NCBI RefSeq assembly: GCF_000026545.1
Contig: NC_011601.1
Direction: 5' to 3' (one strand)
Origin: Escherichia coli O127:H6 str. E2348/69
GTDB lineage: Bacteria > Pseudomonadota > Gammaproteobacteria > Enterobacterales > Enterobacteriaceae
Length of the DNA: 64,000 nucleotides
Shown: piece by piece, positions 24,019 through 60,507 of the stretch
How the letters are laid out: each line of letters opens with the position of its first letter
Position numbering within the stretch: the stretch's first letter is position 1
Translations under genes and position numbers: made by a program
Notes under the pieces: model-generated
Told to the model about the DNA's origin: nothing
The model's database searches: none
The model's input: only the letters and a program-made list of their open reading frames with translations

Positions 24019-25312
24019 TTGTTTTAACCTCATGACAGATTTAAGGATGAACAAATCCCTGCCATTGCTGGCATATAAGAATGAAACCGGATATTTATTA
24101 CGGAACTGTTTTAAAGACCTGCCGGGATTTCGATATTATCCTGGTGAATAACTTTATCGACCGGGTAACAGTTACCGGGAATTTTCTGTTCGGTTGCTGC
24201 AGTCATACACTACTGCATTGTCCTGTGAACACTGACTGCAATATCAACTGGCTCTCCGGAAACAAGAAAAACTGTCAGAACAAGCACAAATGCTGAATTC
24301 ATTGTGCACATCCTTTTGGCATCAGACGTAAACGAGCCAGCATTGAAACAATGCATATTTTATTTAATAGCTCCCGTTCTTGTTTTCTCTTGTTAATGGC
24401 ATCTTCAGTAAATACTGGGTTACTGATAGTGACACCAATTTCAAAACAACCTTCAGACGTATTAACGTTTGGTAATAACGTTTTCATTATCGCGTCCTCA
24501 ACAATGAATTTTGTGATGCAGTGCCTGGTGCCTCCAGGTGACGTTAACCAGTTAACAATTAACGCCGGATACAGAGAATCCACCCATAACACTGTTTTTG
24601 GTTTTAACTGTTCCGCGTGCGCTCAGCCGCATTCACCACATCACAAAATTCACTTTAAAAAGGGCGGCAGAGCAGTCACGGAGTAAAACTGATACCGCCA
24701 AACGTCACCAGAAAATTGATAACAGAGGGCGTTGCAGCGGGGTTGTCACTTAAGCGTATGGTCAACCTGACAACCCGGTGTCCTCAACGGGGGAAGGAAT
24801 AACCCCGCCATACTTACCGCCGCGCCATTTCGCGGATTGCCACAACCGGAAGCGCACGGTCGACGAAAATTTAACGACAGGCTATCTATGAACCAGCTAC
24901 CTCGCCGTGCGCTTTCGCGTTATGGTCTGACTTTTCAGGGAAATATCCTTTCAGTAAACTGTCAGTGCCGGATGCTCACCCGTGTCCGGCGCACGCACTC
25001 CACCTCATCCGTGGAGAACTCCTTAATTACCAACCTTAGCTTCGTTGGTTAGCTATTAACGCGGGTATGTAATCATTCTGGCAATGCTTAATGTCGCTGC
25101 TTTTTCCAGATTAGTGATATCCTGCTCCAGAGCGGACAGATTTTCAGCCTGCTTAGCCCTGGCTTCATTGGCCCATTTCAGATCCTGCGCTGCATTAATT
25201 TTCTGGCGCATCCACTCATAAAGTTCATCATCGGTATAGTCTGGCGCGATGATGACGGGTTCTCGTTTCTGCATACTGATTCCTCGCGGTGCTGTTTCGC
25301 TTATCAGCCGTT

Positions 25313-28494: not shown

Positions 28495-28526
28495 GTTGAG
28501 AAGTAATTTTTACCGGGAGGAAATTT

Positions 28527-28801
28527 ATGGAGACTGTTTTTGACGCACTGAAAGCAATGGGAAAAGCCACATCCATAGAACTTGCTGCGCGCGTGAAGAA
28601 GTGCTGAACGAACTATGGGAACTGAAAAAGGCTGGTTTTGTTGATAAAAGCGCGTACACCTGGCGTGTGGCTGATAACAACGTTCAGCAGGAACAGCCAG
28701 CGCAGGCAGAACTGCCGGAAGAAACCACCACAATGAGTGAAGTTATGCAGCGCATACTGGCATTTTATCAGGGAAATGTTCGATATTTTAGACGTTACTA
28801 G
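28527..28801 (+). pseudogene. Small phage ORF apparently interrupted by frameshift/stop
   Basis: ATG at 28527 gives [26 protein letters not shown] and the sense continues in another frame (ORF 28601-28801). Confidence 0.35.
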
Positions 28802-29240
28802 ATTAAAGAGCATTAGTTCAGATGTGAATTGACATTGTGTGGCACAGGGTTGGGCTAGCGTGGGGGTTTGCTTTGTGTAAGAAACGGATGCTCTGCAAAT
28901 TACTACTAATGCTTAATGTTAGTCTGATCTGCTCCCCGATGATTAATACACCGCTATGTTAGTAATGTCTGTAGATCGCTGTGTGTTGCATCCATCGGTT
29001 GACCCCACAGTCCAAACCAGACTGTCAGCTTTGATTCGATTCTATCTACTCAACCTGTCAGGTAATGTCTGAGCTAATACACAGAGTACGGCTATCGCGA
29101 ACTTTAAGCTAGGTATCTGATACGCACCGTTCACTTGGTCGTACTTCTTGCACTGACTAGCTATCGTGCGCAGTTATTTATAGGTAATCTCCAGTGTATA
29201 ATTTTCCAACTTATGGGAGATTGTAAAACAGGAGGAATAT

Positions 29241-30083
29241 ATGAGGAAAAAATCGTTTGGACGTTGCCCGTTTGATTTCGACGAAGATGTAAAAAAAATA
29301 GCCGCGATAAATAAATATATCCATGCGAAATTTGAGAGGCATAAAAATAAAATAGATAACCTAAAGGGGGTGGAACAAAAATTGATGGTTTTACATTACT
29401 TTAATGTACTGAATGAACTTAGTAATCAGGCTATATTTTCTTTGAGTACCGGAGCCTTTTCAGCATCGGAAGTATTAACTAGAGTTATAATGGAACAGGC
29501 TGCCAATCAATTTTATATAGCAATTGATGATGGAAAAAATGCACAAGCATTACTCAAGGGTAGTAAGAAATTAGTTCATAGTAATGGGAAACGGTGGCTG
29601 GAGTGTTTAAAATCCAAAGAAATGACTAATCCAGCAGCAGATGAAAGGATTCGTATCGGAAAAGAGCTAACTGATATGTTTAATAGATTGTGGCCAAATA
29701 CACCTGAATATCCTGGAACCAAAAAGCTTTTCGAAGTAATTGGCTGGGAAACACACTATCATGCCTATTACGTCCCTCTTTGTGATTCAATACATACATT
29801 CTCTGATGATATGGCAAATATAGTATCTCTATATAATGCAATCCAAAGCGATAAAACTACTGCTATCGAACTCACTCTTGCAGTTAAACAAGAAAATAAA
29901 CGGCTGGCAATTTATAATGTCGTAATTGCTATTGGCCTGCGGTGTGAGGCCTTAGTAAATGTATTTAACTCTTTAGGTTATCGAGATATTATAACTGAAA
30001 TGGCGCCAACAATAGATGCAGTCAACCAGATTATAATTCGATATGATGATTTCGAACATTCCAGAATTTTTTATTGTCAATAA
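29241..30083 (+). CDS. Uncharacterised 280-aa protein in AT-rich accessory island
   Basis: Clean ORF with RBS aggagg 8 nt upstream; visibly AT-rich codon usage; no motif I can assign. Confidence 0.7.
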   Translation: MRKKSFGRCPFDFDEDVKKIAAINKYIHAKFERHKNKIDNLKGVEQKLMVLHYFNVLNELSNQAIFSLSTGAFSASEVLTRVIMEQAANQFYIAIDDGKNAQALLKGSKKLVHSNGKRWLECLKSKEMTNPAADERIRIGKELTDMFNRLWPNTPEYPGTKKLFEVIGWETHYHAYYVPLCDSIHTFSDDMANIVSLYNAIQSDKTTAIELTLAVKQENKRLAIYNVVIAIGLRCEALVNVFNSLGYRDIITEMAPTIDAVNQIIIRYDDFEHSRIFYCQ

Positions 30084-30140
30084 TTAATTGGCAGAATTCG
30101 TACATGCACAACAACTAGTTATAGTTGACCTATTTCGCTC

Positions 30141-30710
30141 TTGAGAGACAACCATACTCAAATCTTCCACATTGCAGGAGATTTGAGTATGAATACGTCA
30201 CCGAGGAACAAAGACAGTATCATAGGCCCAAAAAGACCACTTCAGATATCTCATATCTGGGGGCTCCAAATCCGGCTTGAACTGGAAGGTAAAACGCGTG
30301 ATTTAGCTCGGTTTCAAGCAGAGCTACGGTGCTGCAACTGAAAAACTGGCAGTCCTATCCAATTTGAGATAACCAAAGGGACAAGAGAAGCTGTTTCTGC
30401 ATTGATAAAGCTTGGCAATTTACGCAGTAAAGACTACTTGTTCCGATCTCGGGTCGGTACTAACCAACACATATCAATCCTGCAATATAACCGAATCTTT
30501 CATAGGAGGGAGAAAAGCTTGGTCTCGAAGATTCGCTTTACAGCACACATTCCATGAGAAGAACAAAACCTTGCCTTGTCTGCAAGAAAACTAAGAATCT
30601 CCGGGTGATCCAACTTCCGTTGGGCCATAAGAAAACGGAAAGCACAGTTCGTTATCTGGGTATAGAAGTTGATGATGCATTAGAGATCTCTGAATCGATC
30701 GAAGTCTAAA
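30141..30710 (+). pseudogene. Degraded tyrosine recombinase/integrase
   Basis: Three short frames with recombinase hallmarks: GPKRPLQISHIWGLQIRLELEGKTRDLA (N-terminal) and HSMRRTKPCLV...LPLGHKKTESTVRYLGIEVDDALEISE (box II His/Arg and catalytic Tyr region); interrupted by stops/frameshifts. Confidence 0.6.
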
Positions 30711-31121
30711 GCTGTCAGGGCTGCAGCAGCAGCCCTGTGCCAAGAGCGTACCAATATATGTCTCAAAAAATTGGGCACAGGTCAATATCAATACCAACAA
30801 CTCTGATTGTGCTCATGTGATTTACTCCTGTAGAAAACGCAGACAGTAAAAATATTTCACTGGCTGCTTCAGACAGGGCGTCCATCATATCATTACATAA
30901 CAATAGCGGGGCACGATATCTAGACATGCAGCAACGATGGACATAGAATGAGTACAATCAAAAGCATGTTTAACTACTTTAATTTAAAAATCTTAGAATC
31001 TTAGGTGTAGAGTTCAATACTTAGTTACATACCCTTTTGAAAGCATCACAAATCATAACTATGAGCCTGTTAAAGGCATAGGTATTCTTAATTAAGAGCA
31101 TTTTAATGAGAGAAAAATAAA

Positions 31122-32495
31122 ATGAAAAGACTATATTATACCCATCATGATAGTCGAACCTTAAAACTTGCTATAGAAGGTGATGTTTCTGATAATGCGA
31201 ATATTTTTACAGTAATTGTAGGTAAAAATGGCGTTGGAAAAAGCAGATTGTTATCTCAGATTGCTAAAGACTGTATTCAAGATATTCATTTCTTGAAAAC
31301 TTTTAATCCATTATTTGACAGAGAAATAACACCAAAGTTAATTGCCGTATCTACCAGCCCATTCGATAAATTCCCTCCAGGGCGTAGGTCATTAAATCAC
31401 CAAAGGAAAGAAAATAATTATCGCTATGTGGGTATGCGTGGAGAAGGCCCCTTCGGCGTATCAAATGCCGTATCCCTTTTATCTTCAGCAGCGAGAGGTT
31501 GGCTAGAGAAACTTGCTTATTCAGAAAATCCTGCAAATTTACTCGATGTTTTTCATTCTATTGATTTTGAGCCCCATATAGAGTTTGTATTTAAACCAAC
31601 TTACAACGGACCGGACACTCCTGACTATAACTTCATTGGTGTATATTCAGATGAGATATTAACGGAAGTTAAGGAGTTATATTTAAAATACAATATAAAA
31701 ATTGACAGGAAGAATATTGAGAGTCTCTTAAAGTTAAACTCCGAATCACGTCATGATATTTACGAAGCACTGGTTGAAATTAATCGATTTGAACCTGAAC
31801 GTAGGGCTGTAACCTTGTCAGTCGATTTTACCAATGGTGAAACATTGGTTGGCTCGACTTATGCGAATAATTATTTTTCTAGATCAATTCTTAAACTTAT
31901 GAACGCTGGCTTCATGAGATTGATGGATATGCGACTCATAAAAAAAAGCTATGGTCCCATGTCACTTAAACGTGCGAGCTCGGGAGAACAATGTTTATTA
32001 GTGATGTTGCTTGGAATTGCAGGGCATATAACTGATGGTTCTATAATACTAATTGATGAACCGGAAATAAGCTTGCATCCTCGATGGCAGGAAGAGTTTA
32101 TCATTATGTTAACAAAAGCATTTTTAACTTACTCAGGTTGTCAATTCATAATTGCAACTCATTCACCACAAATAATATCCAATTTGCCGAATAAAGGTTG
32201 TTATATAACATCTTTGTCGAAAAGTTATCTTTATAAAGCAAAATACTTTAGCAACCGGTCTGCAGACTATCAACTTGCGGAACTATTTGATGCCCCTGGC
32301 ATTATGAATGAATACATTGCCAGATTAGCTTTCAATTTACTTTCAAAAGTTAAGACTGCTAAGTTAGTAACAGATGATAATTGGCGTGAATTAAAACAAC
32401 TCCAGCTTCTCCTTGAAAACGTTAATAGTAATGACCCTATTAATGAACTCGTAAATTCCGTATCTCAGGTGTGTGAAATTTATGCCAAAAATTAA
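31122..32495 (+). CDS. ABC/AAA_21-type ATPase, Septu PtuA-like
   Basis: Walker A VIVGKNGVGKSRLL; Walker B + D-loop IILIDEPEISLHP; H-loop IIATHSPQII; 457 aa; overlaps downstream HNH gene. Confidence 0.75.
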   Translation: MKRLYYTHHDSRTLKLAIEGDVSDNANIFTVIVGKNGVGKSRLLSQIAKDCIQDIHFLKTFNPLFDREITPKLIAVSTSPFDKFPPGRRSLNHQRKENNYRYVGMRGEGPFGVSNAVSLLSSAARGWLEKLAYSENPANLLDVFHSIDFEPHIEFVFKPTYNGPDTPDYNFIGVYSDEILTEVKELYLKYNIKIDRKNIESLLKLNSESRHDIYEALVEINRFEPERRAVTLSVDFTNGETLVGSTYANNYFSRSILKLMNAGFMRLMDMRLIKKSYGPMSLKRASSGEQCLLVMLLGIAGHITDGSIILIDEPEISLHPRWQEEFIIMLTKAFLTYSGCQFIIATHSPQIISNLPNKGCYITSLSKSYLYKAKYFSNRSADYQLAELFDAPGIMNEYIARLAFNLLSKVKTAKLVTDDNWRELKQLQLLLENVNSNDPINELVNSVSQVCEIYAKN

Positions 32496-33117
32496 AAATC
32501 CAATTAGATTCAGCGCAGAGTCATTAGATATTATTGAGAAAAAATTGTCTTCTCCAGATTTTAAGCATACCAACTGGGGAGATGATGATTTGCAAGTTCT
32601 CCGTGCAGAAATTAGAAATCATTACAGAGAAGAACAAAAGCTAGAATGTGTATATTGTCATGAGCCTATTGGGGTAAGAGCTGCACAAGCTGCTCCTATA
32701 GAGCATATTGTGCCAAAATCTCAATATCTATGTTTTATTTTTGAACCTAAGAATCTATGTGTAGTATGTCCTGACTGCAATGAATTCAAAGGTAAAAATG
32801 AAGTGTTATTTGAACCCGTAATAAATGGGGGGCGGCGCAAAAACTATCCAACTGCATCTGCATCATTTCGCATCGTTCATCCACATATAGATGATTATGA
32901 GATGCATATTATAAAAGCAAATCGTGTTTATGTGGACAAAACACCTAAAGGGCACTATACCATTGGAATATGTAAACTAAATAGATTTTTTCATTATTTT
33001 GGGATGTGTGATGAATTTGTTAATGATGCAAAAATTGCTGAGGCAAATGAAAATTTTTTCAAAAAAGGTAGTATTACTACTAATGAATTATTGGATGATG
33101 ACATTCATTTGATTTAA
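32473..33117 (+). CDS. HNH endonuclease, Septu PtuB-like
   Basis: HNH/zinc motif CVYCHEP...IEHIVPKS...CVVCPDCNEFKGKN; 214 aa; start overlaps ATPase gene end by 23 nt. Confidence 0.75.
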   Translation: MKFMPKIKNPIRFSAESLDIIEKKLSSPDFKHTNWGDDDLQVLRAEIRNHYREEQKLECVYCHEPIGVRAAQAAPIEHIVPKSQYLCFIFEPKNLCVVCPDCNEFKGKNEVLFEPVINGGRRKNYPTASASFRIVHPHIDDYEMHIIKANRVYVDKTPKGHYTIGICKLNRFFHYFGMCDEFVNDAKIAEANENFFKKGSITTNELLDDDIHLI

Positions 33118-33371
33118 CTATGAATTATTATATTGTAAAGTAATCAGGTAAGATATGTTAGACAGTGAGACTATTGCCTTACAGAATTCATTATTCTTAT
33201 GGATCGCCTTTCTGACTGATTTCATATTGGCGGGGTAACGGGAGTTAAGTAGAATGGCTGCGGGTGCTTGAGGCTATCTGTCTCAGGCATGAACACCAAA
33301 GGCAGATAGAGAAAAGCCCCAGTTAACATTACGCGTCCTGCAAGACGCTTAACATTAATCTGAGGCCAATT

Positions 33372-34460
33372 TCATGCTAGACACATGTAGGTTAGCCTCT
33401 TACGTGCCGGAAGGCAAGGAGATGTATGGGTCCACCACATATTGCAATTTTTATTCTCTTTTAAAATATATTCCACGGGCGTCATTAGTGCGAGCGCCTT
33501 GTGGGGTCTTTTGCTGTTATACAGCACCAGATATTCCGCCAGCTTCTGGTTAAATAGCGCCAGATCTTCAAAGAGTAAAATCTCATTAAATTCAATAAAC
33601 TGCTCTCTTAACGTCCGGTTAAAACGTTCACAGATAGCGTTCATTTTTGGCGTGTAGGGATAGGTCCAGAGGTGTTTGATAGCGGCTTCCTGCAGCGTTT
33701 TGTCGAAGTTTCCCAGGAACTCTTTTCCGTTATCTGTGATTATCTGGCTGATACCGACCGGGAACAACCGGGCTGCGCGGCTGAAGAAGTGATTGACGAT
33801 ATCACTGTTGAGTGACGGCACAGCCAGCGCCAGCGCGTAATTGCTGCATTCGTCGATCATGGTGATGACATAGCGACGCAGTTCGCCCATTCTGAGCTCA
33901 ATGGCGTCCATCCCAATGAGCTCACCTGTCTTTACCGGGCGGTAGTGCTTTGGCCTGCGGGGTTTGGCAGACCGCTTTTTGACAAGCAGTGCCTTCCCCC
34001 GCGATCCCAGACGCACAGGTATCATCCGCATTTTATCATGTGCGGCAGCGATCATTCTGCCGATGGTGGAAACACTCGGACAGGCCAGATAGCGCTGTTC
34101 GCACCAGGGCTTCAGGCGAACAAAAATCTGCTCTTTACCGAGGTTCGGCAGCTCTGTCCTGAGGCGTCGAATCTCTTTCAGCACATCGGGATGCCAGTGT
34201 TTTTTTCGTCGCACCAGAGGTGCCTTACTGTGCGGGATTAGCCCCTCAGGTCCTTCCTTGTTCAGTAACTGACGCCACCAGTAAAGCGTGCGGCAGGACA
34301 CGCCAAAGGCTTCAGAAGCTGCAGAAATACCGTGTTTATCCCAGAAGTGCAGAGCCTTCATTCTCATTGTTGCTATATCAGCCATCACTGAAAGCCTCAA
34401 CGCATAATCGGCCGTTTGGTAGTACTTAGGATAGCCAACCATCAGATGCTGCATTTGCAT
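33372..34460 (-). CDS. IS481-family DDE transposase (integrase-core/rve domain)
   Basis: 362 aa; N-terminal HTH (...CRTLYWWRQ...), DDE core, C-terminal ...YNSKRPHKALALMTPVEY typical of rve transposases. Confidence 0.7.
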   Translation of the reverse strand: MQMQHLMVGYPKYYQTADYALRLSVMADIATMRMKALHFWDKHGISAASEAFGVSCRTLYWWRQLLNKEGPEGLIPHSKAPLVRRKKHWHPDVLKEIRRLRTELPNLGKEQIFVRLKPWCEQRYLACPSVSTIGRMIAAAHDKMRMIPVRLGSRGKALLVKKRSAKPRRPKHYRPVKTGELIGMDAIELRMGELRRYVITMIDECSNYALALAVPSLNSDIVNHFFSRAARLFPVGISQIITDNGKEFLGNFDKTLQEAAIKHLWTYPYTPKMNAICERFNRTLREQFIEFNEILLFEDLALFNQKLAEYLVLYNSKRPHKALALMTPVEYILKENKNCNMWWTHTSPCLPARKRLTYMCLA

Positions 34461-34490
34461 AGTGCAATCTCCCCTTACTTATCCGGAGGC
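33372..34490 (-). mobile_element. IS481-family insertion sequence (approximate limits)
   Basis: Single-ORF DDE transposase; imperfect terminal inverted repeats ccggaaggcaaggagat (about 33406) and revcomp of atctccccttacttatccgg (about 34467-34486); exact ends not resolved. Confidence 0.6.
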
Positions 34491-34531
34491 AATTGCAATA
34501 TCTCTGTGAACTTACACAGGAGAAGCAGGCT

Positions 34532-34687
34532 ATGAAGCAGCAAAAGGCGATGTTAATCGCCCTGATCGTCATCTGTTTAACCGTCATAGTGACGACACTG
34601 GTAACGAGGAAAGACCTCTGCGAGGTACGAATCCGAACCGGCCAGACGGAGGCCGCTGTCTTCACAGCTTACGAACCTGAGGAGTAA
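34532..34687 (+). CDS. hok: Hok/Gef-family type I toxin
   Basis: MKQQKAMLIALIVICLTVIVTTLVTRKDLCEVRIRTGQTEAAVFTAYEPEE, near-identical in pattern to Hok/Gef peptides as recalled. Confidence 0.9.
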   Translation: MKQQKAMLIALIVICLTVIVTTLVTRKDLCEVRIRTGQTEAAVFTAYEPEE

Positions 34688-34756
34688 GAGACCCGGCGAG
34701 GGAGAAATCCCTCGCCACCTCTGATGTGGCAGGCATCCTCAACGCACCCGCACTTA

Positions 34757-34777
34757 ACCCGCTTCGGCGGGTTTTTG
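34757..34777 (+). terminator. Rho-independent terminator downstream of hok
   Basis: cccgcttcggcggg stem-loop followed by a T-run. Confidence 0.7.
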
Positions 34778-34903
34778 TTTTTATTTTCAACGCGTTTGAA
34801 GTTCTGGACGGCGCCGGAATAGAATCAAAAATACTTAAGTAGCGCGCAGGGATAAGAGGGATGGTCCCTTAAAGGGGAGAGCTAATTATCCGGAAGGATT
34901 CTG

Positions 34904-39237: not shown

Positions 39238-39313
39238 GGCCCTTTAGCTCAGTGGTGAGAGCGAGCGACTCATAATCGCCAGGTCGCTGGTTCAAATCCA
39301 GCAAGGGCCACCA
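39238..39313 (+). tRNA. ileZ: tRNA with CAU anticodon, Ile2-like (ileZ-type of lambdoid phages)
   Basis: Hand-folded cloverleaf: acceptor GGCCCTT/AAGGGCC, D-arm GCTC..GAGC, anticodon loop CTCATAA, T-arm GCTGG TTCAAAT CCAGC, CCA end; resembles E. coli tRNA-Ile2 as recalled. Confidence 0.85.
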
Positions 39314-39410: not shown

Positions 39411-39487
39411 GCGTTGTTAGCTCAGCCGGACAGAGCAATTGCCTTCTAAGCAATCGGTCACTGGTTCGAATCCAGTACAACGCGCCA
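39411..39487 (+). tRNA. argO: tRNA-Arg (anticodon UCU)
   Basis: Cloverleaf: acceptor GCGTTGT/ACAACGC, anticodon stem ATTGC/GCAAT with loop CTTCTAA, T-arm ACTGG TTCGAAT CCAGT, CCA end. Confidence 0.9.
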
Positions 39488-39951: not shown

Positions 39952-40979
39952 ATACATATCTGGATTATCACCTGTTACGGTAAAAAGTGATTGCTTACTG
40001 TTTTTGTGAATGGCATTGCAGCAGCCGGATAATGTCAGTGCTGGCTGACTGTGTACTGGTGGCGGGTGTGGTGGTTGTTGCTTTCCCGTTGCTGAAAAAG
40101 AAAACGCCAGACTGTTAGCCGGAGAAATTTTTAAATACTTCACAATTCAGGCGGTTGACTGTTGTCTGGTTTGCGGGGAGTTTGTTAAAAGAAACTGGCA
40201 TGGTGAATCCACCTGTGCGGAGGGGCAATCAGCGAGTAGGTATATGGGATAATCGCGGATTCAGGTGCTGGTACTGAATTCACCGGGAGGCACCCGGCAC
40301 CATGCAATGGCACATAGCGCCACTCTCCAGCCCCTCTCCGGAGGGGCTGTTTATATTGATTTTGTCAGATGTGAGTAAACTCCTTATGGACTTTGTTGTT
40401 TTAGTCCATAAGGACATATTTGCAGAGTGCAACGGTTATTAAAGCATTCATTCAATACGTTATCTGTATTTGTAGGGCATTCCTGGCTGTTTTTGATTAA
40501 ATTCCAGAATGTTTTATTGAATGGTACTACGTTGTAAATGGTTACAGGTAGCACTTTGTTATTGAGCATGATACCTGTGTGAGTCAGTGTAAATATACTT
40601 TCAGGAGGTAAGAAAGCATCCGATTGATACCAGATTATTAATTTTATTTTACTCCATATGACTGAAAAAGATATTCCGCATGATGGCTGGATAACTGTAT
40701 CAATCACAATCCACTTCATTTAGTTTCCTTGTTTATGCCTTGCTGGTGATGTTCTGAAAAGTATAAATGATATTTTTGATTGTAAACCATAGAGCAGAAT
40801 TATTTTTCTGATGTTGTTTATTGTTTATTTAAATGCAGGGTGGTTTATATCTCGTCTTGTAGTTTATCCATGCATATCTGCTTGATGATGAGGTTTTTAT
40901 TTAAGGTATGGTTTTGTGTTTTTTCTGTATTACATGTCAGGTATTTTAAAGAATTATTTTTCAGATGGTGGAAAGAACC

Positions 40980-43085: not shown

Positions 43086-44663
43086 CCCCCAGCTAGGCTC
43101 TGTCTCTTATACACAAATCCCCACCCGGGGATTTGTGATGTCTGTCAGTCTGCTTTAGGGGGACTCTTTCCATCCGGTAGTTTCCTTCCTCCCCGGCAGC
43201 GATTTTTTGAACTTTTTCCTCACCCGTTGATCTTCTCTTATATTTCATTTTCTTCGGGTCTGTTATGGTACTTTCTGATTGTTATTCATGGGCTAACGAG
43301 CAGTTTGGACATGCCCGTCTCGGTGATCCGCGTCGTACACGACGCCTTGTGTCACTGGCCTCTTCTCTCGCTCAGCATGCAGGTCTTTCTATTGTGAAAT
43401 CATCCCAGTCCACTGCTCAGGTTGAAGGTGCGTACCGCCTGATACGTAACCCGTCTGTGTCCCCGCAAGCCATTGCCGAAGCCGGATTTACCGCCACTGT
43501 AAGGGCATGTGAGGCTCATCCGCTGCTCCTCGCGCTGGAAGACACCACCACCATTAACTTCAGTCACAGTACGGCATCTGATGACCTGGGGAATACCACC
43601 ACTAACCCGAAGACGCGCGGGCTGCTGGCTCACTCTGTCCTGATGTACGCCCCCGACAGCGCCCTGCCAGTCGGTCTTATCGAACAGCAGCGCTGGAGTC
43701 GTGCCACGGACACCTACGGTGTTAAGCACCAGCGAAAAGAACGTCCCTATGAAGAAAAAGAAAGTTACCGCTGGCAGCAGGCTTCGGAGCGCATGGCCGA
43801 ACGGCTGGGGGAGATACAGAAACGGGTAATCACTGTCTGTGACCGGGAAGCGGATATCTGGCATTACCTGCATTATAAAGTCAGCCACGGGCAGCGCTTC
43901 GTGGTGCGTGCAGCACAGAATCGCCGGCTGGAAGAAGCACCCGGCAAGCTCTTCGAACTGCCGGAAGTCCTGGCAACCGCGGGAAGCCACACGCTGAATG
44001 TGATGCAAAAAGGCGGGCGGGCAGCCCGCCAGGCCCGGATGTTCATCAGTTACAGCGAAGTCAGCATAAAAAATCCCGACAACAGCGGCCAGGCGCTCCC
44101 GCTCACGTATGTCTGTTGCCGGGAGCAGGCAGAGGACGGCGCCTGCTGGCATCTGCTGACGTCAGAAAAAGTGGCGAGTGCCGCCGATGCGCGACGTATC
44201 GTCAGCCATTACGAGCGACGCTGGCTGATAGAGGAATACCACAAGGCGTGGAAAAGTGGTGGTACATGTGTGGAATCGCTGCGAATGCAGACCCGGGATA
44301 ACCTCGAGCGCATGGTGGTTATCAAGGCGTTTATCGCGGTGCGGGTGCTGGGCCTGCGGCAGGGCGGTATCAGTGAAGAAACACAAAATGACAGCTGTGA
44401 GAAAATACTGACGCCGACAGAGTGGAAACTGCTGTGGGTTAAGCTGGAAGGAAAACCGCTTCCGTCACAGATGCCGACACTGAAATGGGCCTGTCTGAAA
44501 CTGGCGAAACTGGGGCGATGGCATGACAGCAAACGCACCGGTCGCCCCGGTTGGGTAGTCATGTGGGATGGCTGGTTCAGACTTCAGGATATGGTTGAGG
44601 GTTACCTGGTGATGAAGTCTCTTGATCAGGAGATCTGATCAAGAGACAGAGCTAGGCTGGGGG
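43086..44663 (+). mobile_element. IS4-family (IS50-like) insertion sequence
   Basis: Imperfect terminal inverted repeats CCCCCAGCTAGGCTCTGTCTCTT (43086) and revcomp of aagagacagagctaggctggggg (44639-44663), containing the CTGTCTCTT motif of IS50 ends; Tn5-Tnp-like transposase inside. Confidence 0.8.
43265..44638 (+). CDS. IS50-like DDE transposase
   Basis: 457 aa, colinear with Tn5 transposase as recalled (LGDPRRTRRLV..., ...YERRWLIEEYHKAWKSG..., ...NLERMV...). Confidence 0.85.
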   Translation: MVLSDCYSWANEQFGHARLGDPRRTRRLVSLASSLAQHAGLSIVKSSQSTAQVEGAYRLIRNPSVSPQAIAEAGFTATVRACEAHPLLLALEDTTTINFSHSTASDDLGNTTTNPKTRGLLAHSVLMYAPDSALPVGLIEQQRWSRATDTYGVKHQRKERPYEEKESYRWQQASERMAERLGEIQKRVITVCDREADIWHYLHYKVSHGQRFVVRAAQNRRLEEAPGKLFELPEVLATAGSHTLNVMQKGGRAARQARMFISYSEVSIKNPDNSGQALPLTYVCCREQAEDGACWHLLTSEKVASAADARRIVSHYERRWLIEEYHKAWKSGGTCVESLRMQTRDNLERMVVIKAFIAVRVLGLRQGGISEETQNDSCEKILTPTEWKLLWVKLEGKPLPSQMPTLKWACLKLAKLGRWHDSKRTGRPGWVVMWDGWFRLQDMVEGYLVMKSLDQEI

Positions 44664-59952: not shown

Positions 59953-60507
59953 CGGACCATAACAATTTATAATCTGCTGGCCGGAACTAATGAATTTATT
60001 GGTGAAGGTGACGCATATATTCCGCCTCATACAGGTCTGCCAGCAAACAGTACCGATATTGCACCACCAGATATTCCTGCTGGCTTTGTGGCTGTTTTCA
60101 ACAGTGATGAGGCATCGTGGCATCTCGTTGAAGACCATCGGGGTAAAACGGTTTATGACGTAGCGTCAGGGGACGAGTTATTTATTTCTGAACTCGGTCC
60201 GTTACCGGAAAATGTTACCTGGTTATCGCCGGAAGGGGAGTTTCAGAAGTGGAACGGCACAGCCTGGGTGAAAGATGCAGAAGCAGAAAAACTGTTCCGG
60301 ATCCGGGAGGCGGAAGAAACAAAAAACAACCTGATGCAGGTAGCCAGTGAGCATATTGCGCCACTTCAGGATGCGGTAGATCTGGAAATCGCAACGGAGG
60401 AAGAAAACTCGTTGCTGGAAGCCTGGAAGAAGTATCGGGTGTTGCTGAACCGTGTTGATACATCAACTGCACCTGATATTGAGTGGCCGACTTCACCTGC
60501 AGAGTAA
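59953..60507 (+). pseudogene. tfa: Tail fibre assembly protein (tfa) lacking its first codons and start
   Basis: [87 protein letters not shown]... colinear with lambda Tfa from about residue 10; homology ends abruptly at the IS2 remnant. Confidence 0.8.

What the first reader, a model, noticed from the sequence alone, without database searches (positions are those of the whole stretch)
31122..33117. Overlapping ABC-type ATPase + HNH nuclease pair (Septu-like PtuA/PtuB) inside the prophage
Two co-directional genes with a 23-nt overlap. Gene 1 (457 aa) has Walker A GKNGVGKS, Walker B/D-loop LIDEPEISLHP and H-loop ATHSPQ of the AAA_21/ABC ATPase class. Gene 2 (214 aa) has a complete HNH zinc-finger nuclease motif (CxxCH...H...CxxC..N). 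This two-gene architecture is the defining layout of Septu anti-phage systems. It sits in a visibly AT-rich insert between the replication genes and the nin region of a lambdoid prophage, a position known to be a hotspot for defence cargo. The same ATPase+HNH pair also occurs as the effector module of some retrons, but I see no reverse transcriptase or msr/msd-like structured RNA nearby.
Basis: partly seen in the sequence, partly recalled or inferred. Interest (0 to 1): 0.78.

Follow-up and report, generated by a model that had tools for sequence, protein, structure and literature searches.

The report
Stand-alone Septu (PtuA/PtuB) defence pair
This is an intact copy of the known two-gene Septu anti-phage system (an ATPase plus an HNH nuclease), carried as AT-rich cargo in a lambdoid prophage of E. 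coli E2348/69; standard defence-gene databases recognise it, so it is ordinary.

Summary
Window 31122-32495 encodes a 457-aa ABC/SMC-type ATPase. It overlaps a downstream HNH nuclease gene.

One correction: the nuclease starts at the conserved ATG at 32482, giving 211 aa and a 14-nt overlap. It does not start at GTG 32473, which would give 214 aa and a 23-nt overlap.

- **Family:** both proteins match PADLOC Septu type I profiles over their full length (PtuA E=1.9e-165, PtuB E=1.1e-83).
- **Fold:** the AlphaFold models find solved PtuA and PtuB chains as their best PDB matches.
- **Conservation:** the catalytic residues are invariant across about 37 homologues each. The overlapping pair recurs in Klebsiella, Dickeya, Pseudomonas and Vibrio with unrelated neighbours. 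dN/dS is 0.13-0.22.
- **Not a retron:** no reverse transcriptase is annotated within about 12 kb either side, and the retron-specific NCBIfam cut-offs are missed by a wide margin.
- **Origin and context:** the window is 100% identical to E. coli E2348/69. The pair lies in a mosaic island of about 35% GC at a variable cargo site between the replication gene P and hokD.
- **Frequency:** only 18 of 5,426 complete E. coli genomes carry it.
- **What is untested:** this clade is distant from the three studied E. coli PtuAB systems (29% identity over 139 aa to EcB88). Its trigger and its nucleic-acid target (tRNA-Tyr or DNA) are therefore unknown.

Verdict: a known kind of system, of low interest.

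The parts
30915..31121 (+). Conserved upstream leader of the ptuAB cassette, likely holding the native promoter and the ribosome-binding site
   Evidence: Nucleotide homology (85%) to the Klebsiella variicola ptuAB locus begins at 30915, 207 nt upstream of the ptuA ATG, and ends at 33130. Sigma-70-like hexamers lie at 30921-30949 and 30970-30999, but the number of such sites in the region is no higher than in shuffled sequence. Promoter function is therefore inferred, not shown.
31122..32495 (+). ptuA: 457-aa ABC/SMC-type ATPase of a type I Septu system (RefSeq WP_000827088.1, annotated 'AAA family ATPase')
   Evidence: PADLOC PtuA1 PDLC00283 E=1.9e-165, protein residues 2-455 on profile positions 3-447 of 448. 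Pfam AAA_21 and AAA_15. Walker A K40, signature S286-Q290, Walker B D312/E313 and H-loop H347 are invariant in 37 homologues of 42-90% identity. The AF2 model (pLDDT 82) has PtuA chains as its best PDB matches: the retron I-A/Eco7/Ec83 PtuA chains rank first, and E. coli Septu 8eea appears from rank 31. dN/dS is 0.13.
32482..33117 (+). ptuB: 211-aa HNH nuclease of the Septu system (RefSeq WP_001124204.1); its start overlaps the end of ptuA by 14 nt
   Evidence: PADLOC PtuB1 PDLC00325 E=1.1e-83, full length. Pfam HNH. Invariant residues are C56, C59, E74, H75, N91, C93, C96, C99, N100 and K103, plus the C-terminal H133-P-H135-x-D137 and C164-x-L-N-R168. The AF2 model (pLDDT 82) has PtuB chains as its top 8 PDB hits over about 215 aligned columns. 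A profile of the family reaches solved PtuB sequences: 9n69_F at 1.5e-5 and 8ee7_C at 0.009, the latter aligned over positions 50-188. dN/dS is 0.15-0.22.

Best explanation
The locus is an intact, stand-alone type I Septu anti-phage system, ptuA-ptuB. It is a 2.2-kb AT-rich cassette (window 30915-33130) inside a mosaic cargo island of a lambdoid prophage in E. coli E2348/69.

**Shown here**
- There are two translationally coupled genes with a conserved 14-17-nt overlap.
- They encode a PtuA-family ABC ATPase and a PtuB-family HNH nuclease.
- All catalytic motifs are intact and conserved.
- Both genes are under purifying selection.
- The pair moves as a unit between unrelated genomic contexts.

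**Inferred from characterised relatives**
- PtuA oligomerises, and pairs of its C-terminal three-helix extensions (residues about 381-456 in the model) clamp the helical C-terminal domain of PtuB. This holds the nuclease in an inactive complex.
- Phage infection releases or activates the nuclease. The sensed trigger is unknown for this clade.
- PtuB then cleaves a nucleic acid. The target is either host and phage tRNA-Tyr in the variable loop, as for Septu EcB88 and retron-Eco7, or nicked/supercoiled DNA, as reported for Septu of ATCC 25922.
- The result is arrest of phage production, at a cost in growth to the infected cell.

This PtuA keeps the canonical signature-motif Gln (Q290) and the Walker B Glu (E313). 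I therefore expect ATP binding and hydrolysis to be needed for defence, as in EcB88. The ATCC 25922 PtuA, in contrast, is reported to be ATPase-dead.
For: - **Profiles:** full-length PADLOC PtuA1/PtuB1 matches at E=1.9e-165 and 1.1e-83. Pfam finds AAA_21/AAA_15 and HNH.
- **Fold:** the best PDB fold matches of both AF2 models are PtuA and PtuB chains of Septu and type I-A retrons. Profile-to-PDB sequence hits reach PtuB chains, including 8ee7_C across positions 50-188.
- **Motifs:** catalytic residues are invariant.
- **Conserved pair:** Dickeya, Klebsiella, P. aeruginosa and Vibrio all have the overlapping pair. The flanks are unrelated, and there is no conserved third gene and no reverse transcriptase.
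- **Selection:** dN/dS is 0.13-0.22.
- **Cassette limits:** boundaries are 30915-33130 by comparison with Klebsiella.
- **Mechanistic precedents:**
  - PMC13096335: EcB88 cleaves tRNA-Tyr, and Walker A/B and H75/N91 mutants lose defence.
  - PMC12819146: hexameric stand-alone PtuAB, clamping of the PtuB C-terminal domain by the PtuA C-terminal extension, DNA nicking, and Leu in place of the signature Gln in the ATPase-dead ATCC 25922 PtuA.
  - PMC11555353: the target differs between PtuAB systems.
Against: - No phenotype was tested here or found in the literature for this clade. No held paper mentions both E2348/69 and Septu.
- Sequence similarity to the characterised E. coli PtuAB systems is confined to the ATPase core. 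It is 29% over 139 aa to EcB88 PtuA and E=3e-7 over about 54 residues to 8ee4 PtuA. Trigger, stoichiometry and target may therefore differ.
- Fold-search TM-scores are modest: about 0.2-0.37 for PtuA and about 0.5 for PtuB.
- The island has about 35% GC, so it may be silenced in its native host. Promoter-like sites are no more frequent than in shuffled sequence.
- One of the 18 carrier genomes has a frameshifted ptuA.
Confidence: 0.85

Rival explanations
1. The pair is an orphaned effector module of a type I-A retron (RT + ncRNA + PtuA + PtuB) that has lost its reverse transcriptase and ncRNA. It would then be either constitutively toxic or inert.
For: Retron I-A effectors are homologous to Septu PtuAB. 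Weak partial hits are found to NCBIfam retron-Ec78 PtuA and PtuB and to PADLOC ATPase_I-A and HNH_I-A. The highest-ranked PDB fold hits of the PtuA model are retron PtuA chains.
Against: - NCBIfam retron equivalogs score far below their cut-offs: 65.8 against 500 bits, and 30.5 against 150 bits.
- No reverse transcriptase is annotated within about 12 kb on either side.
- Rfam finds no structured RNA other than sok.
- PtuA is 457 aa with its Walker A at residues 34-41, so it lacks the N-terminal extension that retron PtuA (550 aa) uses to bind RT-ncRNA (PMC12819146).
- None of the homologous loci in four other genera has a reverse transcriptase.
Confidence: 0.03
2. The pair belongs to a different ABC-ATPase-plus-nuclease system rather than Septu. 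Candidates are a PARIS-like, AbiL-like or PDC-M01-like system, or a restriction-associated ATPase/HNH pair.
For: PtuA has partial hits to AriA, PDC-M01A, AbiLi and restriction-associated AAA (TIGR04435) profiles. AriA is its best PDB sequence hit, at 1.5e-12.
Against: - Those hits cover only the shared signature/Walker B region, about 60-120 residues. The PtuA1 and PtuB1 profiles match end to end with far higher scores.
- The partner is an HNH protein of PtuB fold, not a Toprim AriB or an AbiLii.
- No methyltransferase or restriction gene is adjacent.
Confidence: 0.04
3. The genes are intact, but in this host they are silent cargo or serve only as a selfish addiction module of a decaying prophage. 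They would then give no meaningful phage defence in E2348/69.
For: - The island has about 35% GC, which is typical of xenogeneically silenced DNA in E. coli. That link is my own knowledge and was not tested.
- The prophage is degraded: pseudogenes and IS481, ISEc13 and IS200C insertions are present.
- The neighbouring recombinase is frameshifted.
- ptuA is frameshifted in one carrier genome.
- The island is rare, present in 18 of 5,426 genomes.
Against: - Both genes are under purifying selection and are intact in 17 of 18 carrier genomes.
- The cassette carries its own conserved 207-nt upstream region.
- The exact PtuB sequence is recorded on at least 1,000 contigs.
- Silence in one host would not change what the system is.
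Confidence: 0.08

Closest known systems
Septu type I (PtuA1/PtuB1) as defined in PADLOC, clade PDLC00283/PDLC00325
   Same: Both proteins give full-length profile matches. The layout is the same: two overlapping co-directional genes, with no further conserved partner.
   Different: Nothing that I could detect. This is the clade the locus belongs to. I found no experimentally characterised member of this clade in the held literature.
Septu of E. coli ATCC 25922 (PDB 8EE4/8EE7/8EEA/8SUX; PtuA 465 aa, PtuB 243 aa)
   Same: - It is a stand-alone ATPase + HNH pair.
- Fold-level matches to both proteins are found.
- The PtuB profile aligns to 8ee7_C over positions 50-188, including the HxH..D region.
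- PtuA has a C-terminal helical extension and PtuB a helical C-terminal domain.
   Different: - Sequence similarity is very low: PtuA E=3e-7 over about 54 residues, and 12-20% identity in fold alignments.
- The ATCC 25922 PtuA has Leu in place of the signature-motif Gln and lacks ATPase activity (PMC12819146). This PtuA has an invariant Q290.
- The reported activity of that system is DNA nicking inhibited by ATP. That has not been tested for this locus.
Septu EcB88 of E. coli JBBDAGI-19-0041 (PtuA WP_000981116.1, 452 aa; PtuB 219 aa)
   Same: It is a stand-alone PtuAB of nearly the same size, with canonical Walker A/B and H-N motifs. By coincidence the catalytic PtuB residues have the same numbers (H75, N91). 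Defence by EcB88 needs both the ATPase and the HNH residues (PMC13096335).
   Different: - It belongs to a different PADLOC clade: EcB88 PtuA matches PDLC00271 and is close to retron ATPase_I-A.
- Identity is only 29% over 139 aa of the ATPase core.
- EcB88 cleaves the tRNA-Tyr variable loop and mainly blocks T5-like and some T-even phages. The target and phage range of this locus are unknown.
Type I-A retron effectors (retron-Eco7/Ec78, Ec83 PtuAB)
   Same: They have a homologous ATPase/HNH pair. The highest-ranked PDB fold hits of the PtuA model are retron PtuA chains.
   Different: There is no RT and no ncRNA. The N-terminal extension is absent; whether the msDNA-binding flap is present was not examined (457 aa against about 550). 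The NCBIfam equivalog cut-offs are not met.
PARIS (AriA/AriB)
   Same: AriA is a related ABC ATPase and is the best PDB sequence hit of PtuA, at 1.5e-12 in the signature/Walker B region.
   Different: The partner here is an HNH PtuB, not a Toprim AriB. The AriA profiles match only partially.

Membership tests
Septu (type I, stand-alone PtuAB) | PtuA: an ABC/SMC-like (AAA_15/AAA_21) ATPase that matches a PtuA profile over its full length | tested here: met
   PADLOC PDLC00283 E=1.9e-165, residues 2-455 on profile positions 3-447 of 448. Pfam AAA_21 and AAA_15.
Septu (type I, stand-alone PtuAB) | PtuB: an HNH nuclease that matches a PtuB profile over its full length | tested here: met
   PADLOC PDLC00325 E=1.1e-83, residues 7-212 on profile positions 2-205 of 213. 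Pfam HNH.
Septu (type I, stand-alone PtuAB) | The two genes are adjacent and co-directional in one operon, and the pairing is conserved across genomes | tested here: met
   The overlap is 14 nt here. The same overlapping pair (14-17 nt) occurs in Dickeya, Klebsiella, P. aeruginosa and Vibrio, with unrelated flanks.
Septu (type I, stand-alone PtuAB) | Intact catalytic motifs: Walker A and B, signature and H-loop in PtuA; the H-N motif and the zinc-binding cysteines in PtuB | tested here: met
   All are present and invariant in 37-39 homologues.
Septu (type I, stand-alone PtuAB) | Folds like the solved PtuA and PtuB structures, including the PtuA C-terminal helical extension and the PtuB helical C-terminal domain that form the interface | tested here: met
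   The top PDB fold hits of both models are PtuA and PtuB chains. Probability is about 1.0 and TM-scores are modest, 0.2-0.5. C-terminal helices are predicted in both proteins. The interface itself was not modelled.
Septu (type I, stand-alone PtuAB) | PtuA oligomer bound to PtuB (a PtuA6:PtuB2 'inflammasome-like' complex) | not testable with these tools
   This needs multimer modelling or cryo-EM/SEC. Only monomer predictions were available.
Septu (type I, stand-alone PtuAB) | Confers phage resistance that depends on the ATPase and HNH residues | not testable with these tools
   This needs an experiment. I found no published test of this clade.
Type I-A retron (RT + ncRNA + PtuAB) | A reverse transcriptase gene next to ptuA | tested here: not met
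   No reverse transcriptase is among the 40 annotated features within about 12 kb on either side. The upstream ORFs are a DUF5677 protein and a frameshifted tyrosine recombinase. There is no reverse transcriptase in four homologous loci.
Type I-A retron (RT + ncRNA + PtuAB) | An msr/msd structured ncRNA upstream | tested here: inconclusive
   Rfam finds only sok in 28500-34800, even at E<=1. I cannot confirm that Rfam holds a model for this type of retron ncRNA.
Type I-A retron (RT + ncRNA + PtuAB) | Retron-type PtuA and PtuB: NCBIfam equivalogs NF041760 and NF041761 above their cut-offs, and a PtuA N-terminal extension | tested here: not met
   Scores are 65.8 bits against a cut-off of 500, and 30.5 against 150. 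Walker A begins at residue 34 of a 457-aa protein.
PARIS (AriA/AriB) | An ABC ATPase AriA paired with a Toprim-domain AriB | tested here: not met
   The partner is an HNH protein. AriA profiles match only about 80 residues.

The most novel reading that the evidence does not exclude
This clade (PADLOC PDLC00283/PDLC00325) is widespread in Enterobacterales, Pseudomonas, Vibrio and Stenotrophomonas, and has no characterised member. It may differ from the studied PtuAB systems in trigger or target.

Two features make this plausible. Its PtuA keeps a fully canonical ABC active site, with Q290 and E313 invariant. Its PtuB has an invariant HPHxD and CxLNR C-terminal region. The system could therefore use ATP hydrolysis for activation, and could cleave a substrate other than tRNA-Tyr or nicked DNA.
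Probability: 0.25. Interest if true: 0.4.

Novelty: already known. Interest (0 to 1): 0.2.

Why it matters
It adds little. It records that the prototype EPEC strain E2348/69 carries a prophage-borne Septu system that RefSeq labels only 'AAA family ATPase' and 'HNH endonuclease'. This could affect the strain's phage susceptibility and any phage-therapy or typing work on it.

A modest scientific point remains. Published PtuAB systems disagree on the target (tRNA-Tyr or DNA) and on the role of ATP. This clade is divergent, appears ATPase-competent and is easy to clone. It would make a useful fourth comparison for deciding whether the target varies by clade.

Tried and rejected
- **GTG 32473 as the ptuB start.** Rejected in favour of ATG 32482.
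- **Retron origin.** Rejected: there is no reverse transcriptase and no ncRNA, and the NCBIfam cut-offs are missed.
- **Identity with the characterised Septu EcB88.** The matching H75/N91 numbering suggested it. It is rejected: the sequence from the paper's supplement shows a different clade, with only 29% identity over 139 aa.
- **The upstream DUF5677 protein and tyrosine recombinase as a third component.** Rejected for four reasons:
  - They form a separate module that occurs without ptuAB in a P2-like prophage.
  - They are absent from ptuAB loci in other genera.
  - The unannotated 287-aa protein upstream of the Vibrio ptuA is unrelated to them.
  - They have no PADLOC hit.
- **Flanking att-like or cassette repeats.** Only short two-copy matches were found, consistent with chance.
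- **Promoter and terminator scan.** No enrichment over shuffled sequence, so no promoter is claimed.
- **Sequenced phages carrying the pair.** None was found. The only hit was a 250-nt, 69%-identity match in a Vibrio phage.
- **Published tests of this clade, or of Septu in E2348/69.** Literature searches found none.
Full report
**1. Observation**

All the quoted motifs are present:
- PtuA: GKNGVGKS at residues 34-41, SSGEQ at 286-290, LIDEPE at 310-315, THSP at 346-349.
- PtuB (214-aa numbering): CVYC at 59-62, EH at 77-78, N94, CVVCPDCN at 96-103.

GC falls to 0.33-0.36 between about 29,000 and 33,250, against 0.45-0.58 on either side.

The window is 100% identical to the E. coli E2348/69 chromosome. 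RefSeq annotation there shows a lambdoid prophage next to potC. Its gene order is int, xis, exonuclease, dicB, repressor/cro-like, YdaT, DnaT-like, P and a truncated DUF1627 gene. Then comes the island: DUF5677, a frameshifted tyrosine recombinase, an 'AAA family ATPase', an 'HNH endonuclease' and an IS481 transposase. After the island come hokD, rem, DUF968 and RusA.

One correction is needed. The nuclease starts at ATG 32482, giving 211 aa and a 14-nt overlap. The evidence:
- Nearly all of the 38 aligned homologues start Met-Pro, and M1 is at least 90% conserved.
- The ATG lies in a TATGCC junction conserved in E. coli, Klebsiella, Dickeya, Pseudomonas and Vibrio, whereas the upstream GTG is GTA in Klebsiella.
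- phrog_36683 matches residues 1-211 of 211.
- RefSeq uses the same start.

**2. What it is**

*Profile matches.* PADLOC gives full-length matches: PtuA1 PDLC00283 at E=1.9e-165 (residues 2-455 on profile positions 3-447 of 448) and PtuB1 PDLC00325 at E=1.1e-83. Matches to AriA, PDC-M01A, AbiLi and ATPase_I-A cover only the shared signature/Walker B stretch. Pfam finds AAA_21/AAA_15 and HNH. The NCBIfam retron-Ec78 PtuA and PtuB equivalogs score 65.8 and 30.5 bits, against cut-offs of 500 and 150.

*Homologues.*
- About 1,500 PtuA homologues reach E<=1e-10. They come from Klebsiella (86% identity), Dickeya (70%), Cronobacter, many Pseudomonas, Vibrio, Stenotrophomonas and others.
- PtuB homologues have a parallel distribution.
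- In four other genera the pair is again overlapping (14-17 nt). The flanks are unrelated, and there is no reverse transcriptase and no conserved third gene.

*Conservation.*
- Invariant in PtuA: the Walker A motif including K40, S286-Q290, D312-E315, H347, and a C-terminal ...S380-x-D-x-QLAELF...PG..NEY motif.
- Invariant in PtuB: C56, C59, E74, H75, N91, C93, C96, C99, N100, K103, H133-P-H135-x-D137 and C164-x-L-N-R168.
- dN/dS against Klebsiella and Dickeya is 0.13 for ptuA and 0.15-0.22 for ptuB.

*Structure.* Both AF2 models have pLDDT 82.
- The PtuB model's top eight PDB hits are all PtuB chains: E. coli Septu 8eea_G and retron Ec78/Ec83/I-A. They align over about 215 columns with TM about 0.5. 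Bare HNH domains of Cas9 follow, with only 64-100 columns.
- The PtuA model's best matches are PtuA chains. The retron I-A/Eco7/Ec83 chains rank first, E. coli Septu 8eea appears from rank 31, and AriA of PARIS from rank 39.
- A profile of the PtuB family reaches solved PtuB sequences: 9n69_F at 1.5e-5, Ec83 at 3e-5 and 8ee7_C at 0.009. The 8ee7_C alignment runs over positions 50-188 and includes the HxH..D region.

*No retron.* No reverse transcriptase is annotated within about 12 kb on either side. Rfam finds only sok near the pair, even at E<=1. PtuA lacks the N-terminal extension of retron PtuA, since its Walker A starts at residue 34 of a 457-aa protein (PMC12819146).

**3. Context**

The AT-rich island is a mosaic of two modules.
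- Window 28924-30673 (DUF5677 plus recombinase) is 86-90% identical to cargo between the tail-fibre assembly and tail-sheath genes of a P2-like prophage in strain MS7163. There the recombinase is intact, and ptuAB is absent.
- Window 30915-33130 (ptuAB plus 207 nt upstream) is 85% identical to a Klebsiella variicola locus that is flanked by phage lysozyme-like and tail genes.

In related prophages, the interval between the DUF1627 gene and hokD or DUF968 holds other cargo:
- RM6927: Paa adhesin and a fimbrial pseudogene.
- EC571: RelE/ParD and a small HNH gene.
- MS10858: ead/Ea22-like genes.

The site is therefore a variable cargo site, but it is not exclusively a defence site.

The pair is present in 18 of 5,426 complete E. 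coli genomes, at 99.8-100% identity. ptuA is frameshifted in one of them, and another has an IS3 insertion in the island upstream of the pair. The exact PtuB sequence is recorded on at least 1,000 contigs.

**4. How it most likely works**

*Shown:* an intact, selected, mobile two-gene unit that encodes a PtuA-type ATPase and a PtuB-type HNH nuclease.

*Inferred from characterised relatives:*
- PtuA oligomers clamp PtuB through the PtuA C-terminal helical extension and the PtuB helical C-terminal domain (PMC12819146). Both elements are predicted here.
- Infection activates the nuclease.
- The target is either the tRNA-Tyr variable loop (Septu EcB88, PMC13096335; retron-Eco7, PMC11555353) or nicked/supercoiled DNA (Septu of ATCC 25922, as cited in PMC11555353 and PMC12819146).
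- The ATCC 25922 PtuA has Leu at the signature Gln position and lacks ATPase activity (PMC12819146). This clade has an invariant Q290 and E313. I therefore expect defence to depend on ATP hydrolysis, as in EcB88, where K43A and D316A abolish defence (PMC13096335).

The trigger and the target for this clade are unknown.

**5. Comparison and novelty**

The locus meets every Septu criterion I could test. It fails the defining retron I-A criteria (no reverse transcriptase, equivalog cut-offs missed, no N-terminal extension; the ncRNA test was inconclusive) and the PARIS criterion.

It is distant from the three studied E. coli PtuAB systems:
- EcB88 PtuA belongs to PADLOC clade PDLC00271 and shares only 29% identity over 139 aa.
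- 8ee4 PtuA matches at E=3e-7 over about 54 residues.
- PtuB has no PDB hit by single-sequence search.

However, PADLOC already holds a near-identical profile, so the kind of system is known and the call is automatic. No held paper mentions both E2348/69 and Septu.

**6. Verdict**

This is an already known kind of system. Interest is 0.2, because the only open point is which target and trigger this uncharacterised clade uses.

Noticed in passing
window 33423-34517 (IS), 33262-33428 (sok/hok leader), 34532-34687 (hokD): A 1,095-bp IS481-family element with a 6-bp target duplication (AGGAGA) is inserted exactly at the hokD Shine-Dalgarno sequence. It separates the hokD coding sequence from the sok/hok-leader region, which matches Rfam RF01794 at 112 bits. 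The empty site is seen in strain FORC 064. The transposase ORF (33372-34460, minus strand) runs 51 nt past the IS end into flanking DNA.
   Followed up: partly
window 29241-30083 (DUF5677 protein) and ~30189-30709 (frameshifted tyrosine recombinase): This is a separate two-gene cargo module. It is 86-90% identical to one in the tail-fibre/tail-sheath hotspot of a P2-like prophage in strain MS7163, where the 194-aa recombinase is intact.

It has no PADLOC hit, and its only PHROG match is phrog_4167, of unknown function. A DUF5677 protein tested in Enterococcus faecalis was not among the candidates reported to give defence (bioRxiv 10.1101/2025.10.07.681051). The function of the module is unknown, but its recurrence at cargo hotspots is suggestive.
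   Followed up: partly
window ~28527-28729 (truncated DUF1627 gene) to 34532 (hokD): In related lambdoid prophages the same interval holds quite different cargo: Paa adhesin and a fimbrial pseudogene, RelE/ParD plus a small HNH gene, or ead/Ea22-like genes. In E2348/69 the DUF1627 gene is cut short at the island's left edge.
   Followed up: partly
NZ_CP148379.1 (hit H3, 8,461-bp record labelled as a plasmid of strain Z1323HEC0067): The whole 4.6-kb island appears on an 8.5-kb record deposited as a plasmid. This is probably an assembly fragment of the prophage rather than a real replicon.
   Followed up: no
window 24662-24713 (DicF), 39238-39310 and 39411-39484 (tRNAs), 40169-40358 (STnc100), 44643-44766 (STnc490), 60269-60467 (IS009): Other Rfam matches above the gathering score in the window. 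They include DicF in the prophage immunity region and two prophage tRNA genes, annotated tRNA-Ile and tRNA-Arg. There is no tRNA-Tyr, the known Septu target and evasion factor.
   Followed up: no
L005 1-4895 (Dickeya dadantii contig upstream of its ptuAB): The Dickeya ptuAB orthologue sits directly downstream of DO-GTPase1/2, GAP1-N1 and DUF4238 genes. These are domains typical of conflict or defence islands, which suggests that locus is a defence island.
   Followed up: no
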